Under the pieces are notes generated by a model. That model ran no database searches and was not told the origin of the DNA. It saw only the letters and a list, made by a program, of their open reading frames with translations. Below, piece after piece: positions 5,166 to 10,440 of a stretch of 23,636 nt of DNA (position 1 is its first letter; every line of letters starts with the position of its first letter). The translations under genes were made by a program, and so were the position numbers. Source of the DNA: a virus. Its lineage: Duplodnaviria; Heunggongvirae; Uroviricota; Caudoviricetes. Location of the stretch: IMG/VR virus record IMGVR_UViG_2897328257_000001; one strand, given 5' to 3'.

Positions 5166-5840
5166 TTAGGCTTTGATTTTGTATCTTCTTGGTTTTCCTG
5201 AGAAAATCACAGTTCCAATTATAGAGCAATTACCGTTGATCTTAATGTAAGGCTCAGGCCAGTTTGGGTTTAACGCTTTGAGATAACGCTGTGTCCCATC
5301 TTCTATCAACCTTTTGAAGGTGGTTTCACCTGTATCGTGCATCAATGCAATAACGTCGTCACCGTGGCAGGCAGGTACTTCAGGATCGACAAAAATCATG
5401 TCTCCCGGGCGGTACTCATCAATCATTGAATCACCTATCACCCGCAAGATATAAGTCATTTCCCCACAGGGTACAGGGCAGGGATACGTTTCTGCTGTGC
5501 TCAAATCAACCTCAGAATATCCAACTTCTTTCCATGCTCCGGCCTGTACCCATGATATGACAGGGACTAATGTGATTTGTTTATTAGTGATTGAAACATC
5601 AGGTTTTTTTGTGATGTTCGTTGTCTGGTGTTCTTGATCGAGCCATCCGACAGGCAGGTCGAAACATTTTTCGATGTGTCGTGCCATGCTGTCACCGATA
5701 TTTTTAGTAGCACCATCTCCCATAAACCTGCTGGTCTGGGTTGGCTCGCGATCAATCATAGTGGCAAAGGAAGAATTCCCTCCAACACCATCTCTCAGTT
5801 TTCTGGCGTTAGACCGCCGGATGTCATGGATTGTTTTCAT
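5166..5840 (-). CDS. CI-like prophage repressor with C-terminal LexA/S24 peptidase (autocleavage) domain, 224 aa
   Basis: C-terminal VIGDSM ... GDMIFVD ... TFKRL (Ser/Lys dyad) typical of S24 repressors; divergent from a cro-like gene across an operator region; no SD before the ATG (possible leaderless PRM transcript as in lambda). Confidence 0.85.
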   Translation of the reverse strand: MKTIHDIRRSNARKLRDGVGGNSSFATMIDREPTQTSRFMGDGATKNIGDSMARHIEKCFDLPVGWLDQEHQTTNITKKPDVSITNKQITLVPVISWVQAGAWKEVGYSEVDLSTAETYPCPVPCGEMTYILRVIGDSMIDEYRPGDMIFVDPEVPACHGDDVIALMHDTGETTFKRLIEDGTQRYLKALNPNWPEPYIKINGNCSIIGTVIFSGKPRRYKIKA

Positions 5841-5930: not shown

Positions 5931-6131
5931 ATGAAAGCGTATTGGGACTCTTTAACCAAAGAACAGCAGGGCGAGTTGGCCGGAAAAGTTGGCTCAACTC
6001 CTGGCTACTTACGGCTGGTTTTCAATGGCTATAAAAAAGCCAGTTTTGTGCTGGCTAAAAAACTTGAGCAATGCACGTCAGGTGCAATTACGAAATCTGA
6101 CTTAAGACCGGATATCTATCCGAAAGATTAG
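5931..6131 (+). CDS. Cro-like small HTH regulator (YdaS/Cro family), 66 aa
   Basis: First gene of the rightward operon, with strong SD; C-terminal ...GAITKSDLRPDIYPKD resembles the YdaS-type Cro signature (KVTRHDLRPD, from memory). Confidence 0.7.
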   Translation: MKAYWDSLTKEQQGELAGKVGSTPGYLRLVFNGYKKASFVLAKKLEQCTSGAITKSDLRPDIYPKD

Positions 6132-6162
6132 CAGAACACTTTCAATTTTTAACCACAGAACG

Positions 6163-6732
6163 ATGAGGCTAATCGTGGGTAAGCATCACTGGAAAATAGA
6201 AAAACAGCCTGAGTGGTACGTGAAAGCTGTCAGAAAAACTATCGCGGCGTTGCCGGGTGGTTACGCTGAAGCGGCTGACTGGCTCGATGTAACAGAAAAC
6301 GCTTTATTCAACCGCCTTCGTGCAGATGGCGATCAGATTTTCCCGCTGGGATGGGCAATGGTTTTACAGCGTGCTGGTGGCACTCACTTCATTGCTGATG
6401 CTGTGGCGCAGTCTGCAAATGGCGTCTTTGTGTCGCTTCCTGACGTCGAGGATGTGGACAACGCCGATATTAACCAGCGTCTGCTGGAAGTCATTGAACA
6501 GATCGGCAGTTATTCAAAACAGATTCGTTCAGCAATCGAAGACGGTGTAGTGGAACCGCATGAGAAGACAGCAATTAACGACGAGCTGTATCTCTCAATT
6601 TCGAAGCTGCAGGAGCATGCAGCACTGGTCTACAAAATCTTTTGCATTTCAGAAAGTAATGACGCCCGCGAGTGTGCAGCTCCGGGCGTCGTGGCGTCGA
6701 TTGCTTCTGGTTGTGGAGAAACTAACGCATGA
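6163..6732 (+). CDS. Hypothetical early regulatory protein, 189 aa, in the cII position (possibly YdaT-like)
   Basis: ORF immediately downstream of the cro-like gene; stop overlaps next start (ATGA); function inferred from position only. Confidence 0.55.
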
Positions 6733-7067
6733 ACAGTTTAACAACACACTACCGTCGCTCGCAACTGATTGCGCTTCCTGTACCGGGTGGAAAAGCGAAG
6801 GTGGAATATTGCTATGCAGTGAATGTACCAGGTGACAGGGAAATTGTAACCCACAGCTTTGCAGAGTGGGCTGTGGGGGATTTCAACCGGCAGAAGGAGA
6901 CAGTCCTTTGCGACAAGTTAACCGCTGGTTCAAAGATCACTACGGAGTGCCCGTCAGAGTCATTCGTTGGGAACCGGAAACACAACGGGTTATCTACCTC
7001 CGCGAAGGCTATGAGCATGAGTGCTTCAGTCCGCTCGAACAGTTTCGTCGTAAATTCAGGGAAATAG
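6729..7067 (+). CDS. Small hypothetical protein; reading frame may shift near 6890-6900 into the overlapping frame ending at 7087 (the alternative ORF is 6866-7087)
   Basis: Two overlapping ORFs: frame-1 N-terminal part and frame-2 C-terminal part look protein-like, while the frame-1 C-terminal part is Ser-rich low-complexity; frame-2 stop overlaps the start of the replication gene. Confidence 0.35.
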
Positions 7068-7076
7068 AGGTCGGTC

Positions 7077-8018
7077 ATGAGCACTAAATTAACCGGCTAT
7101 GTATGGGATGGTTGCGCAGCGTCAGGCATGAAATTATCCAGCGTGGCAATTATGGCCCGCCTGGCTGATTTCAGTAATGACGAAGGTGTGTGCTGGCCAT
7201 CGATTGAAACCATTGCCCGCCAGATTGGCGCGGGGATGAGTACCGTCAGAACGGCTATCGCACGGCTGGAAGCAGAAGGCTGGTTAACGCGTAAGGCGCG
7301 TCGCCAGGGTAACCGCAATGCGTCGAATGTTTATCAGCTTAACGTTGCGAAGCTTCAGGCAGCGGCATTTTCTCAACTGTCAGATTCTGACCCGTCAAAA
7401 TCTGACGCATCAAAATCTGACCCGTCAAAATTTGATGCGTCGAAATCTGGCAAAAAAGCGGGTTTTCACCCGTCAGAATCTGGCGGGGATCCGTCAGTAA
7501 AATCAAAACATGATCCGTCAGATAAAAAACCTTCTCGTCCGGACTCTTCGCAACCGGACACGCAGACGGCTGAACAGGATTTTTTAACTCGCCATCCTGA
7601 TGCGGTTGTATTCAGCCCTAAAAAGCGCCAGTGGGGGACGCAGGATGATTTGACCTGCGCACAGTGGCTCTGGAAAAAAATCATCGCCCTGTACGAGCAT
7701 GCCGCCGAATGTGACGGCGAGGTGGTTCGTCCCAAAGAACCGAACTGGACAGCCTGGGCAAACGAAATTCGCCTGATGTGTGTGCAGGATGGTCGTACTC
7801 ATAAACAAATCTGCGAGATGTACAGCCGCGTCAGTCGCGATCCGTTCTGGTGCCGTAACGTGCTCAGCCCGTCGAAGCTGCGGGAAAAATGGGATGAGCT
7901 TTCCCTGCGCTTATCGCCGTCCGTCAGCACGTACACCGAAAAACGCGAAGACCCGTACTTCAAAGCCAGTTACGACAACGTGGACTACAGCCAGATCCCG
8001 GCAGGATTCAGGGGGTGA
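7077..8018 (+). CDS. Replication initiator protein (O-like: N-terminal HTH/winged-helix DNA-binding domain, repeat-encoded linker, C-terminal domain), 313 aa
   Basis: N-terminal ...WPSIETIARQIGAGMSTVRTAIARLEAEGWL... is HTH-like; the gene contains tandem 15-bp DNA repeats (iteron-like) as lambda O contains ori; sits in the replication-module position. Confidence 0.7.
   Translation: MSTKLTGYVWDGCAASGMKLSSVAIMARLADFSNDEGVCWPSIETIARQIGAGMSTVRTAIARLEAEGWLTRKARRQGNRNASNVYQLNVAKLQAAAFSQLSDSDPSKSDASKSDPSKFDASKSGKKAGFHPSESGGDPSVKSKHDPSDKKPSRPDSSQPDTQTAEQDFLTRHPDAVVFSPKKRQWGTQDDLTCAQWLWKKIIALYEHAAECDGEVVRPKEPNWTAWANEIRLMCVQDGRTHKQICEMYSRVSRDPFWCRNVLSPSKLREKWDELSLRLSPSVSTYTEKREDPYFKASYDNVDYSQIPAGFRG
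7392..7451. repeat. Four tandem 15-bp iteron-like repeats (CCGTCAAAATCTGAC consensus) inside the replication initiator gene, with three further dispersed CCGTCAG copies to 7521; candidate replication origin
   Basis: Seen directly: 7392-7406, 7407-7421, 7422-7436, 7437-7451; analogous to lambda ori iterons embedded in gene O. Confidence 0.6.
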
Positions 8019-8020
8019 TC

Positions 8021-8509
8021 ATGAGTCTTTTGAATGACGTTCAGAAATTCATTGAAGCCCATCCGGGGTGTACTTCCGGAGACATTGCGGATGCTTTTGC
8101 AGGTTACTCACGGCAGCGCGTTCTGCAGTCAGCAAGCAAGTTACGTCAGAGCGGGCGTGTGGCTCACCGTTGTGAAGGAGATACACGCAGACATTTCCCG
8201 CGCCTGACTGAGAGAGCGCAGGAACCGGAACCACAACCAGTTCGAGAAACCAGACCTGTGCGCAATTTCTATGTCGGCACTAACGATCCACGGGTGATTT
8301 TGTGCCTGACCCGCCAGGCGGAAGAACTGGAGTCCAGGGGCTTATACCGTCGTGCTGCAACGGTGTGGATGGCGGCATTCCGTGAAAGCCACTCCCAGCA
8401 AGAGCGAAACAATTTTCTTGCGCGTCGTGAGCGGTGTTTACGGAAAAGCAGCAAGCGCGCTGCATCGGGTGAAGAGTGGTATCTGTCAGGGAATTACGTG
8501 GGGGCTTAA
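8021..8509 (+). CDS. Hypothetical protein, 162 aa, with wHTH-like N-terminal segment (possibly YfdN-like)
   Basis: ATG at 8021 preceded by AGGGGG; translationally coupled to the downstream methyltransferase (TAATG overlap). Confidence 0.6.
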   Translation: MSLLNDVQKFIEAHPGCTSGDIADAFAGYSRQRVLQSASKLRQSGRVAHRCEGDTRRHFPRLTERAQEPEPQPVRETRPVRNFYVGTNDPRVILCLTRQAEELESRGLYRRAATVWMAAFRESHSQQERNNFLARRERCLRKSSKRAASGEEWYLSGNYVGA

Positions 8510-9162
8510 TGAGTAATAAATATTGCCAGGCGCTGGTGGAACTGCGGAACAAACCAGCCCATGAACTGAAGGAAGTGGGCGATCAGTGGCGCACGCCGGA
8601 CAACATTTTCTGGGGAATTAACACCCTGTTTGGCCCGTTTGTTCTGGATCTGTTCACTGACGGTGATAACGCCAAATGTGCCGCGTATTACACGGCGGAA
8701 GACAACGCGCTGGCGCATGACTGGTCAGAACGTCTTGCGGAGCTTAAAGGTGCTGCCTTTGGTAATCCCCCATACAGCCGCGCCAGTCAGCATGAGGGGC
8801 AATACATCACCGGCATGCGTTACATCATGAAGCATGCCAGTGCCATGCGTGATAAAGGCGGGCGCTATGTTTTCCTGATTAAAGCTGCCACCAGCGAAGT
8901 GTGGTGGCCGGAAGATGCAGATCATATTGCTTTTATTCGCGGGCGTATTGGTTTTGAACTGCCTGTCTGGTTTATCCCGAAAGACGAGAAGCAGGTACCG
9001 ACAGGCGCTTTCTTCGCTGGTGCTATTGCTGTTTTCGACAAGACCTGGAAGGGACCGGCAATCAGCTACATCGGGCGCGATGAACTTGAGGCATGTGGTG
9101 AGGCCTTTCTGGCGCAGGTTCGCCAGCAGGCGGAAAAACTGGTCAGGGAGATGGCGGCATGA
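8509..9162 (+). CDS. Phage Dam-family N6-adenine DNA methyltransferase, 217 aa
   Basis: Catalytic NPPY motif (FGNPPYS) and overall resemblance to phage orphan N6-adenine methyltransferases; a new ORF begins at 9159 (MTTLTQCQQ...) and is cut by the assembly gap. Confidence 0.85.
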   Translation: MSNKYCQALVELRNKPAHELKEVGDQWRTPDNIFWGINTLFGPFVLDLFTDGDNAKCAAYYTAEDNALAHDWSERLAELKGAAFGNPPYSRASQHEGQYITGMRYIMKHASAMRDKGGRYVFLIKAATSEVWWPEDADHIAFIRGRIGFELPVWFIPKDEKQVPTGAFFAGAIAVFDKTWKGPAISYIGRDELEACGEAFLAQVRQQAEKLVREMAA

Positions 9163-9187
9163 CGACGTTAACTCAATGCCAGCAGCA

Positions 9188-9198
9188 NNNNNNNNNNN
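9188..9198. other. Assembly gap (11 N); unknown true length
   Basis: Run of n characters; flanked on the right by the IS left end, i.e. a typical repeat-induced contig break. Confidence 0.99.

Positions 9199-10440
<1,242 letters not shown>

What the first reader, a model, noticed from the sequence alone, without database searches (positions are those of the whole stretch)
7378..7528. Iteron-like tandem repeats (candidate ori) embedded in the replication initiator gene
Four tandem 15-bp units (CCGTCAAAATCTGAC consensus, 7392-7451) plus three dispersed CCGTCAG copies encode an S/D/P/K-rich linker of the initiator, mirroring lambda where ori iterons lie inside gene O. No DnaC-like or P-like helicase-loader gene is evident in the window; the region downstream is interrupted by the gap.
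Basis: partly seen in the sequence, partly recalled or inferred. Interest (0 to 1): 0.45.

Follow-up and report, generated by a model that had tools for sequence, protein, structure and literature searches.

The report
Replication origin inside a prophage initiator gene
The repeats are real and are almost certainly the binding sites and melting region of a lambda-style replication origin, lying inside the initiator gene of a very common E. coli/Shigella prophage; the kind is known, but this version had not been described in anything I could search.

Summary
The window is an SfII/SfIV/e14-like lambdoid prophage. Its 313-aa initiator gene (7077-8018) holds five 15-bp-phased copies plus one distal copy of a 13-bp near-palindrome (core TCAnAWTCTGA, 7379-7484). 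Next come two GATC-led A-rich repeats, which form the least stable stretch of the gene (7488-7529).

The protein has three parts. An N-terminal winged-helix domain is followed by a repeat-encoded linker and then a C-terminal domain homologous to that of lambda O. This matches lambda's layout, where ori sits in the linker-coding part of O.

In 78 distinct homologues across Enterobacterales the repeats are conserved as DNA, not only as peptide:
- The two serines of each unit are almost always TCA and TCT, and lysine is always AAA.
- Third-codon positions carry 1.57 bits in a 60-bp block, against 0.58 bits in the DNA-binding domain.
- Two genes keep the motif in a different reading frame.
- Core positions 2 and 12 co-vary symmetrically.

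No experiment or published description of this origin was found.

No helicase-loader gene follows the initiator, even in the complete SfII genome. Instead the initiator ends in the C-terminal tail motif of host DnaT (IPxGFRG). In the family, tail-bearing initiators never have an adjacent loader gene. This is an untested lead.

The parts
7077..8018 (+). Replication initiator gene (313 aa): N-terminal winged-helix domain, repeat-encoded linker, lambda-O-type C-terminal domain, DnaT-like tail
   Evidence: ORF; translation; phrog_391 'replication initiation O-like', E 4e-135; Pfam HTH_36 at residues 23-70; lambda O homology
7077..7376 (+). Coding region of the N-terminal winged-helix DNA-binding domain (residues 1-100). 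Presumed reader of the palindromes.
   Evidence: HTH_36, GntR, HTH_29 and PaaX hits at residues 23-82. S55, T56 and R58 are conserved across 78 homologues. Role inferred.
7379..7391 (.). Iteron 1, GTCAGATTCTGAC (perfect 6-1-6 palindrome)
   Evidence: (I9)
7394..7406 (.). Iteron 2, GTCAAAATCTGAC
7409..7421 (.). Iteron 3, ATCAAAATCTGAC
7424..7436 (.). Iteron 4, GTCAAAATTTGAT
7439..7451 (.). Iteron 5, degenerate: GTCGAAATCTGGC (7 of 9 core positions)
   Evidence: In 15-bp register with iterons 1-4 (D1)
7472..7484 (.). Iteron 6 (distal), GTCAGAATCTGGC. With its flanks it extends to CCGTCAGA-A-TCTGGCGG. This is the most conserved site in the family.
   Evidence: Family forms are TCAGAATCTGG (35 genes) or CCAGAATCTGG (29 genes). 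Conserved out of frame in L004 and L074.
7461..7520 (.). 60-bp block conserved as DNA across the family, synonymous sites included: GGT TTT CAC CCG TCA GAA TCT GGC GGG GAT CCG TCA GTA AAA TCA AAA CAT GAT CCG TCA
   Evidence: Third-position information is 1.57 bits here, against 0.58 bits in the DNA-binding domain and 0.46 bits downstream. Val is GTA in 72 of 72 genes and Asp is GAT in 72 of 72.
7488..7526 (.). Two GATC-led direct repeats 24 bp apart: GATCCGTCAGTAAAA (7488-7502) and GATCCGTCAGATAAA (7512-7526). Candidate unwinding-element repeats and Dam sites.
   Evidence: D11. GATC conserved through GAT codons, 72 of 72 and 63 of 63. A 24-bp repeat is kept in the divergent clade. Role inferred.
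7495..7529 (.). AT-rich tract; least stable duplex of the initiator gene
   Evidence: 30-mer 7498-7527: 73% A+T, dG -34.1 kcal/mol, 98.8th percentile of the window
7572..7907 (+). Coding region of the C-terminal domain homologous to the lambda O C-terminal domain (residues 166-277)
   Evidence: tblastn 39% identity, E 9e-18; BLASTP E 3e-26; AlphaFold model is a helical bundle with pLDDT 71-91
7989..8015 (+). C-terminal tail SQIPAGFRG, a copy of the extreme C-terminus of host DnaT (SQIPPGFRG)
   Evidence: 8 of 9 identical, at the C-terminus in both. IPxGFRG is invariant in DnaT orthologues. A relative's last 30 aa are 63% identical to DnaT's, E 2e-8. Low pLDDT, so probably disordered.
8476..9162 (+). 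Phage Dam methyltransferase. A possible modifier of the two conserved GATC sites in the origin (speculative link).
   Evidence: Pfam Dam, E 1e-45

Best explanation
The segment 7379-7529 is the phage's origin of replication. It is built like lambda's and lies in the part of the initiator gene that encodes the flexible linker between the protein's two domains.

Shown:
- There are six 13-bp near-palindromes, five of them spaced 15 bp apart.
- An AT-rich tract follows, carrying two GATC-led repeats.
- All of this is conserved as DNA in 78 homologous genes.
- The gene product is a two-domain initiator whose C-terminal domain is homologous to that of lambda O.

Inferred:
1. Rightward early transcription (cro, cII-like, ymfM, initiator) makes the protein and passes through the origin.
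2. Dimers of the N-terminal winged-helix domain bind the palindromes and build a lambda 'O-some'-like nucleoprotein complex.
3. That complex melts the adjacent AT-rich tract at 7495-7529.
4. The C-terminal domain and its DnaT-like tail bring in the host DnaB helicase through host loading proteins, because the phage has no loader gene.

The N-terminal domain and the repeats travel together as one module. In relatives the same module is joined to other C-terminal domains, as expected if the domain reads those sites.
For: Anatomy: searches show the array, its dyad symmetry and its clustering (12 strand-matches against 2.5 expected).

Homology and position:
- C-terminal domain is 39% identical to lambda O.
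- Lambda iterons sit at O codons 117-145, ahead of the shared domain. Here the sites sit at codons 101-136.
- PMC7466680 states that the lambda and Stx-phage ori (iterons plus AT-rich tract) lies in the middle of gene O.

AT-rich tract: the least stable 30-mer of the gene is 7498-7527.

DNA-level constraint in 78 distinct genes whose DNA-binding domains are 60-100% identical:
- 350 of 353 motif hits fall at nt 270-480 of the gene. The usual spacing is 15 bp.
- In 257 peptide-defined S-x-S-[DEG] units, Ser1 is TCA 241 times and TCG 16 times. Ser3 is TCT 227 times and TCC 30 times. Lys is AAA 132 of 132 times.
- By contrast, invariant serines in the DNA-binding domain use 5-6 different codons.
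- Third-position information is 1.57 bits in block 7461-7520 against 0.58 bits in the DNA-binding domain; Mann-Whitney p 1.6e-5 on conserved-residue codons.
- In L004 and L074 the distal motif is read in another frame (LQNLT/RQNLT instead of PSESG) while the DNA is kept.
- Core positions 2 and 12 co-vary: T..A 212, C..G 37, T..G 40, C..A 16; odds ratio 12.

Module behaviour: the same N-terminal domain plus repeats is joined to a lambda-O-type, a Phg_2220_C or an SfV-orf39-type C-terminal domain. SfV orf39 has a different DNA-binding domain and different DNA repeats in its linker.

Copy number varies in 15-bp steps among near-identical phages.
Against: - There is no binding, footprint or replication experiment for this family. 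None was found in the searchable literature.
- All but two copies are in one reading frame and the SKSD-like peptide is also conserved, so peptide-level selection is present as well.
- The counts are not corrected for shared ancestry.
- The AT-rich tract is modest: 73% A+T over 30 bp, and 15 places elsewhere in the window are less stable.
- The 15-bp spacing puts neighbouring sites on nearly opposite faces of the helix, unlike lambda's roughly 20-24 bp.
- Flanking positions 1 and 13 show no excess complementarity: 0.45 against 0.43 expected.
- This copy of the prophage is interrupted after the Dam gene by a gap and an IS element. Its origin may therefore never fire in this host.
Confidence: 0.8

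Rival explanations
1. The repeats are coding-only. They form a low-complexity, disordered S/D/P/K linker that grew by replication slippage, and the DNA sequence itself has no function.
For: The units are multiples of 3 bp and nearly all lie in one frame (351 of 353). The peptide SKSD(P/A) is conserved. Copy number varies in in-frame steps. The C-terminal tail is modelled as disordered, so flexible segments are plausible in this protein.
Against: Serine has six codons, but only TCA/TCG at one position and TCT/TCC at the other are used in 257 units from many genera. Lysine is AAA 132 of 132 times. Third positions are almost fixed across 60 bp. Out-of-frame copies keep the DNA and change the peptide. 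Dyad symmetry and 2/12 covariation have no meaning for a peptide.
Confidence: 0.04
2. The sites are bound by the initiator, or act as RNA or single-strand hairpins, but serve regulation rather than origin firing. Possibilities include autorepression, control of translation or transcription through the gene, or copy-number 'handcuffing'. The true origin would lie elsewhere.
For: The segment folds far better than shuffles as a single strand: RNA z -5.7, DNA z -4.9. Symmetric covariation fits hairpins as well as dimer sites. Iterons in plasmids do double as control elements (general knowledge).
Against: The commonest unit has an A.C mismatch at positions 5/9 on the mRNA strand (175 of 350 sites), whereas the T..G state at positions 2/12 favours the opposite strand. 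No single strand therefore gives consistent pairing. Rfam gives only a sub-threshold miRNA-hairpin hit, 30.7 bits against 97. An AT-rich, GATC-bearing tract conserved as DNA sits next to the sites, as in known origins. Position and protein homology match lambda ori. No other repeat cluster with this motif exists in the window.
Confidence: 0.1
3. The palindromes are binding sites for another protein, for example the winged-helix/PerC-like product of 8015-8509 or a host factor. Alternatively they are a hotspot for module exchange, and are not read by the initiator's own N-terminal domain.
For: The junction between the conserved N-terminal module and the variable C-terminal domains lies just after the repeats. 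The downstream gene has a winged-helix N-terminus.
Against: The repeats stay with the N-terminal domain in relatives where the next gene is a methylase or a DnaC-like ATPase rather than the PerC-like gene. No DnaA-box or IHF consensus lies in 7300-7650.
Confidence: 0.05

Closest known systems
Bacteriophage lambda ori / O protein, and the Stx-phage variants with six iterons
   Same: The origin lies inside the initiator gene in the linker-coding segment. It has several dyad-symmetric sites followed on the right by an AT-rich tract. It sits in the rightward early operon after a cII-type gene. The C-terminal domains are homologous at 39% identity. The left half of the unit (CCGTCAAAA) resembles the lambda iteron's left half (CCCTCAAAA).
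   Different: The N-terminal domain scores as Pfam HTH_36, not the lambda O N-terminal family. The sites are 13 bp at 15-bp spacing, all in one frame. Lambda has 18-19 bp sites at 20-24 bp spacing in different frames. There is no P gene. A DnaT-like tail is present, and two conserved GATC sites lie in the AT-rich tract.
Origins of other lambdoid phages inside their initiator genes (P22 gene 18, phi80 gene 15)
   Same: The same principle, with type-specific repeats coupled to a type-specific N-terminal domain. This is from my own knowledge and was not tested here.
   Different: The sequences were not compared here. Those phages carry a helicase or loader gene next to the initiator.
Iteron plasmid origins and P1 oriR / E. 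coli oriC
   Same: Repeated initiator sites lie next to an AT-rich unwinding element that carries GATC sites. In P1 oriR and oriC, Dam methylation of such sites controls firing (general knowledge).
   Different: Plasmid iterons are direct repeats of about 17-22 bp, in helical phase and outside the rep gene, usually with DnaA boxes. Here the sites are palindromes inside the gene and there is no DnaA box.
E. coli DnaT (primosomal protein i)
   Same: The extreme C-terminal motif IPxGFRG is shared. In relatives of the initiator the last 30 residues are 63% identical to DnaT's. The DnaT C-terminal domain also matches several phage initiator PHROGs through to their C-termini.
   Different: The window protein's folded C-terminal domain is lambda-O-type, not the Pfam DnaT domain. 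Fold search did not place DnaT among the top 60 matches.

Membership tests
Lambda-type origin embedded in the initiator (O) gene | Several repeated, dyad-symmetric sites inside the initiator ORF, in the segment between its two domains | tested here: met
   Six 13-bp near-palindromes at codons 101-136. Lambda iterons sit at O codons 117-145.
Lambda-type origin embedded in the initiator (O) gene | AT-rich tract directly to the right of the sites | tested here: met
   7498-7527 is 73% A+T and is the least stable 30-mer in the gene. It is weaker than many intergenic stretches in the window.
Lambda-type origin embedded in the initiator (O) gene | Repeats conserved as DNA rather than only as peptide | tested here: met
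   Codon and third-position constraint, out-of-frame copies, and 2/12 covariation
Lambda-type origin embedded in the initiator (O) gene | Initiator binds the repeats, and the fragment supports replication | not testable with these tools
   Needs EMSA or footprinting and an ori-plasmid or marker-frequency experiment
Lambda O protein family | C-terminal domain homologous to the lambda O C-terminal (P-binding) domain | tested here: met
   tblastn E 9e-18, 39% identity; BLASTP E 3e-26; phrog_391
Lambda O protein family | N-terminal domain of the lambda O type (Pfam Phage_rep_O) | tested here: not met
   Pfam gives HTH_36, GntR and HTH_29 hits only. BLASTP finds no convincing N-terminal match to lambda O.
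Lambda O-P replication module | A P-type (or DnaC-type) helicase-loader gene next to the initiator | tested here: not met
   The next genes are PerC-like and Dam. The complete SfII operon has none. tblastn with DnaC, lambda P and a DnaC-like protein finds nothing downstream of any of the 44 tail-bearing family members.
Iteron-plasmid origins | Direct repeats of about 17-22 bp in helical phase, outside the rep gene, with DnaA boxes | tested here: not met
   13-bp palindromes at 15-bp spacing inside the gene. No DnaA box in 7300-7650.
DnaT (Pfam PF17948) | DnaT three-helix DNA-binding domain | tested here: not met
DnaT C-terminal tail motif | [IV]-P-x-G-F-R-G at or within 3 residues of the C-terminus | tested here: met
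   SQIPAGFRG against DnaT SQIPPGFRG. The motif is invariant in 120 DnaT clusters.

The most novel reading that the evidence does not exclude
These phages need no helicase-loader gene because the initiator carries a copy of the C-terminal tail of host DnaT (…IPxGFRG). On this reading the tail is a portable peptide that plugs an origin-bound initiator into the host PriA/PriB/DnaT-DnaC-DnaB loading route.

Support:
- The tail is found on initiators with at least three different folded C-terminal domains.
- It is invariant in DnaT orthologues.
- In 76 family members it is mutually exclusive with an adjacent DnaC-like or P-like gene: 0 of 44 with the tail, 11 of 32 without (Fisher p 2e-5, uncorrected for ancestry).

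If true, this would also assign a function to DnaT's own tail. How DnaT recruits DnaB/DnaC is stated to be unknown in PMC13377028.
Probability: 0.3. Interest if true: 0.7.

Novelty: new member of a known kind. Interest (0 to 1): 0.4.

Why it matters
The initiator gene is present at 80% coverage or more in 1576 of 5426 complete E. coli genomes. RefSeq names it only 'helix-turn-helix domain-containing protein'. It also occurs in serotype-converting Shigella phages and in some Stx phages.

Placing the origin gives a defined target for three kinds of work: studying or blocking induction-driven replication of these prophages, building replicons, and annotation.

The family is also a clean natural example of one DNA stretch under two constraints at once, protein linker and protein-binding sites. 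It shows a simple computational test, synonymous-site information, that could find such intragenic origins elsewhere.

The DnaT-tail lead could make the unresolved step of replication restart, how DnaT hands over to DnaB/DnaC, testable with a phage system.

Tried and rejected
- **Rfam** on 6000-9180, both strands. The only hit was a sub-threshold eukaryotic miRNA hairpin, caused by the palindromes.
- **DnaA-box and IHF consensus scans.** Nothing in 7300-7650, and window-wide counts are at chance level.
- **Promoter/terminator scan.** No promoter-like site in the gene. A small inverted repeat at 7459-7472 was not pursued.
- **Complementarity of flanking positions 1 and 13.** I first read the L004 form TTCA..TGAA as symmetric covariation. 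Across 350 sites there is no excess (0.45 against 0.43), so the claim is dropped. Only core positions 2 and 12 co-vary.
- **Single-strand folding.** The z-scores are strong, but that is an automatic result of a palindrome array and does not discriminate between readings.
- **PDB sequence search with the initiator.** Only weak MarR-type winged-helix hits.
- **Pfam on the C-terminal half and on the lambda O C-terminal half.** No family.
- **Plasmid database.** Hits are prophages in large replicons or circular phage genomes filed as plasmids, for example the 44-kb pKqq_SB1124_5. None has a replicon type, so this gives no proof of autonomous replication.
- **Literature.** The SfV and e14 genome papers are not held. 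The SfIV paper names a 'replication module' but no origin. The DnaT structure papers do not describe the tail's role.

Full report
**What the window is.** The region 6700-8600 is 98-99% identical to Escherichia phages PhiR29_1/2 and to Shigella phages SfII and SfIV. The early-right operon reads as follows:
- cI-like repressor, 5166-5840, minus strand
- cII-like CP76 regulator, 6163-6732
- ymfM-like gene, 6729-7067
- initiator, 7077-8018
- winged-helix/PerC-like gene, 8015-8509
- Dam methylase, 8476-9162

An N run at 9188-9198 is followed by an IS3-family transposase pair (9227-10440) and then tail genes. This copy of the prophage is therefore interrupted.

**The observation.** Tandem Repeats Finder gives one array at 7386-7449, with period 15 (4.3 copies) or period 30 (2.1 copies).

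Read in register, there are five units. Each holds a 13-bp near-palindrome, at 7379, 7394, 7409, 7424 and 7439. A sixth copy lies at 7472.

The core TCANAWTCTGA with at most one mismatch occurs at six places in 23.6 kb, five of them here. That is 12 strand-matches against 2.5 expected, reached by 0 of 100 shuffles.

The array can equally be read as 6-bp half-sites alternating in orientation with 1-bp and 2-bp gaps. The isolated distal copy shows that the 13-bp convergent pair is the stand-alone unit.

It occurs 18 times in the window.

**The protein.** It has the following parts:
- Residues 23-82 score as a winged helix-turn-helix: HTH_36 at E 4e-11, plus GntR, HTH_29 and PaaX.
- The whole protein matches phrog_391 'replication initiation O-like'.
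- Residues 166-277 are 39% identical to the C-terminal domain of lambda O.
- An AlphaFold model of residues 160-313 gives a confident helical bundle for about residues 186-281 and a low-confidence tail.

In the lambda record, the four iterons lie at O codons 117-145 and the shared domain begins near codon 171. Here the sites lie at codons 101-136 and the domain begins at codon 166. The layout is the same.

PMC7466680 confirms that in lambda and Stx phages the ori, meaning iterons plus an AT-rich tract, lies in the middle of gene O.

**The AT-rich element.** The least stable 30-mer in 7000-8100 is 7498-7527. It is 73% A+T and at the 98.8th percentile of the window, and it lies directly right of the sites. 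It contains two direct repeats that start with GATC: 7488 GATCCGTCAGTAAAA and 7512 GATCCGTCAGATAAA (D11).

**Is the repeat DNA or only peptide?** I collected 80 chromosomal loci from as many species and 80 viral contigs that encode the same N-terminal domain.

The survey used 78 distinct genes with DNA-binding domains 60-100% identical. They come from Escherichia, Citrobacter, Klebsiella, Kosakonia, Yersinia, Pantoea, Rahnella, Proteus, Providencia and others. The results:
- 350 of 353 motif hits lie at nt 270-480 of the gene. There are 1-9 per gene, and the dominant spacing is 15 bp.
- I defined units by peptide alone (S-x-S-[DEG], n=257). The first serine is TCA 241 times and TCG 16 times. 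The second is TCT 227 times and TCC 30 times. Lysine is AAA 132 of 132 times.
- By contrast, invariant serines in the DNA-binding domain use five or six different codons.
- I anchored the genes on GGDP. A 60-bp block, window 7461-7520, then has almost fixed third positions. Val is GTA in 72 of 72 genes and Asp is GAT in 72 of 72 and 63 of 63, which preserves both GATC sites.
- Mean third-position information is 1.57 bits in the block, 0.58 bits in the DNA-binding domain and 0.46 bits just downstream.
- In L004 and L074 the distal motif and its flank are kept as DNA but read in another frame. A 1-nt indel before GATCC restores the frame.
- Core positions 2 and 12 co-vary: T..A 212, C..G 37, mixed forms 56, odds ratio 12. 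A Proteus/Providencia clade uses CCAGAATCTGG at 33-bp spacing.

These counts are not corrected for shared ancestry, but synonymous sites in the flanking domain are clearly randomised over the same set of genes. Flanking positions 1 and 13 do not co-vary. I withdraw that early impression.

**Module behaviour.** The same N-terminal domain and repeat array are joined to several different C-terminal domains:
- a lambda-O-type domain (this window, and Klebsiella phage Kp4873-4)
- a Phg_2220_C domain (Phi06_2987 and many others)
- an SfV-orf39-type domain (Stx2_KH16-043)

The joint lies right after the conserved block.

SfV orf39 itself has a different DNA-binding domain and different DNA repeats in its linker.

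Among 80 viral contigs with an identical DNA-binding domain, most have the same five-unit array. Four have one or two extra 15-bp units.

**Mechanism.** The best-supported reading is a lambda-type origin. Initiator dimers on the palindromes form a nucleoprotein complex that opens the neighbouring AT-rich tract, and transcription from the early promoter passes through. Binding, melting and activity are inferred, not shown.

The conserved GATC pair and the phage Dam gene two genes downstream suggest methylation-dependent control, as in oriC or P1 oriR. That is speculation.

**The missing loader.** No DnaC-like or P-like gene follows the initiator here. None is found in the contiguous SfII genome either.

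The protein ends in SQIPAGFRG, and E. coli DnaT ends in SQIPPGFRG. Further observations on this tail:
- IPxGFRG is invariant in 120 DnaT clusters. It has the same variants as the phage proteins, including ...GFRGAK.
- In a sister clade of lambda-O-type domains, the last 30 residues are 63% identical to DnaT's, E 2e-8.
- The DnaT C-terminal half also matches several phage initiator PHROGs through to their ends.
- In the family, none of 44 tail-bearing initiators has a DnaC-like or P-like gene within at least 1.8 kb downstream. Eleven of 32 tail-less ones do: nine DnaC/IstB-like and two lambda-P-like. Fisher p is 2e-5, uncorrected for ancestry.

The papers I could read do not assign a role to this tail. 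They state that how DnaT recruits DnaB/DnaC is unknown. This is a lead, not a finding.

**Comparison and novelty.** It works like lambda ori and shares lambda O's C-terminal domain. Three things differ: the N-terminal domain, the site type and the loader arrangement. It therefore fails strict membership of the lambda O-P module.

I found no description of this origin in the held literature. RefSeq labels the gene only as a helix-turn-helix protein, although it is present in 29% of complete E. coli genomes.

I rate it a new member of a known kind.

Noticed in passing
window 7989-8015; L003, L005, L033, L037; P0192: The initiator's last residues (SQIPAGFRG) copy the extreme C-terminus of host DnaT. 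The tail occurs on initiators with different C-terminal domains. In 76 family members it is mutually exclusive with an adjacent DnaC-like or lambda-P-like gene.
   Followed up: partly
window 9188-10440: An 11-N gap is followed by an IS3-family transposase pair (HTH_Tnp_1, then rve) and then tail genes. The Q, lysis, terminase and head genes found in SfII are absent, so this prophage copy is interrupted or truncated.
   Followed up: partly
L061 and L085 (E. coli chromosomes), 2501-2737: The first 79 residues of this initiator (99% identical) are fused to an unrelated 456-aa reading frame, so the repeats and the rest of the gene are gone. From memory, this looks like the ymfN fusion of the K-12 e14 remnant. 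That identification was not tested.
   Followed up: no
window 7488-7491 and 7512-7515; 8476-9162: Two GATC sites inside the AT-rich tract are kept across the family by exclusive use of the GAT codon, and a phage Dam methylase lies two genes downstream. This may mean methylation control of origin firing.
   Followed up: partly
L007 (lambda) 1466-1485 vs window 7470-7486: Lambda has TCGTCAGAGAATTCTGGCGA just right of its AT-rich tract. This resembles the distal site CCGTCAGAATCTGGCGG here. Lambda iterons also share the left half CCCTCAAAA with this family's CCGTCAAAA. It could be chance or common descent.
   Followed up: no
window, whole: CCGTCAG occurs 18 times against 3.1 expected from dinucleotide shuffles, and most copies are far from the origin, in tail genes. 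Codon usage (CGT CAG, CCG TCA) probably explains this, but it was not checked.
   Followed up: no
window 6729-7087: Phage records annotate a 112-aa ymfM-like gene at 6729-7067. ymfM is reported elsewhere as an SOS-inducible division inhibitor (bioRxiv 2020.11.19.390815). RefSeq instead annotates a DUF4222 protein that overlaps the initiator start. The two annotations conflict.
   Followed up: no
window 8015-8509: The gene after the initiator combines an N-terminal winged-helix segment (BilQ/MarR-like, residues 7-70) with a C-terminal PerC/ANR-like segment (residues 98-151). Its role next to the origin is unknown.
   Followed up: no
window 7459-7472: A small inverted repeat, CGGGTTTTCACCCG, lies in the spacer between iterons 5 and 6. 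On the minus strand it is followed by a T run and so looks like a terminator. The TTT codon within it is fixed in 70 of 70 genes.
   Followed up: no
L168 (NZ_CP084811.1, 44,270 bp circular): A Klebsiella quasipneumoniae 'plasmid' with no replicon type is a complete phage genome carrying this initiator type. It is either an excised replicating phage or a phage-plasmid.
   Followed up: no
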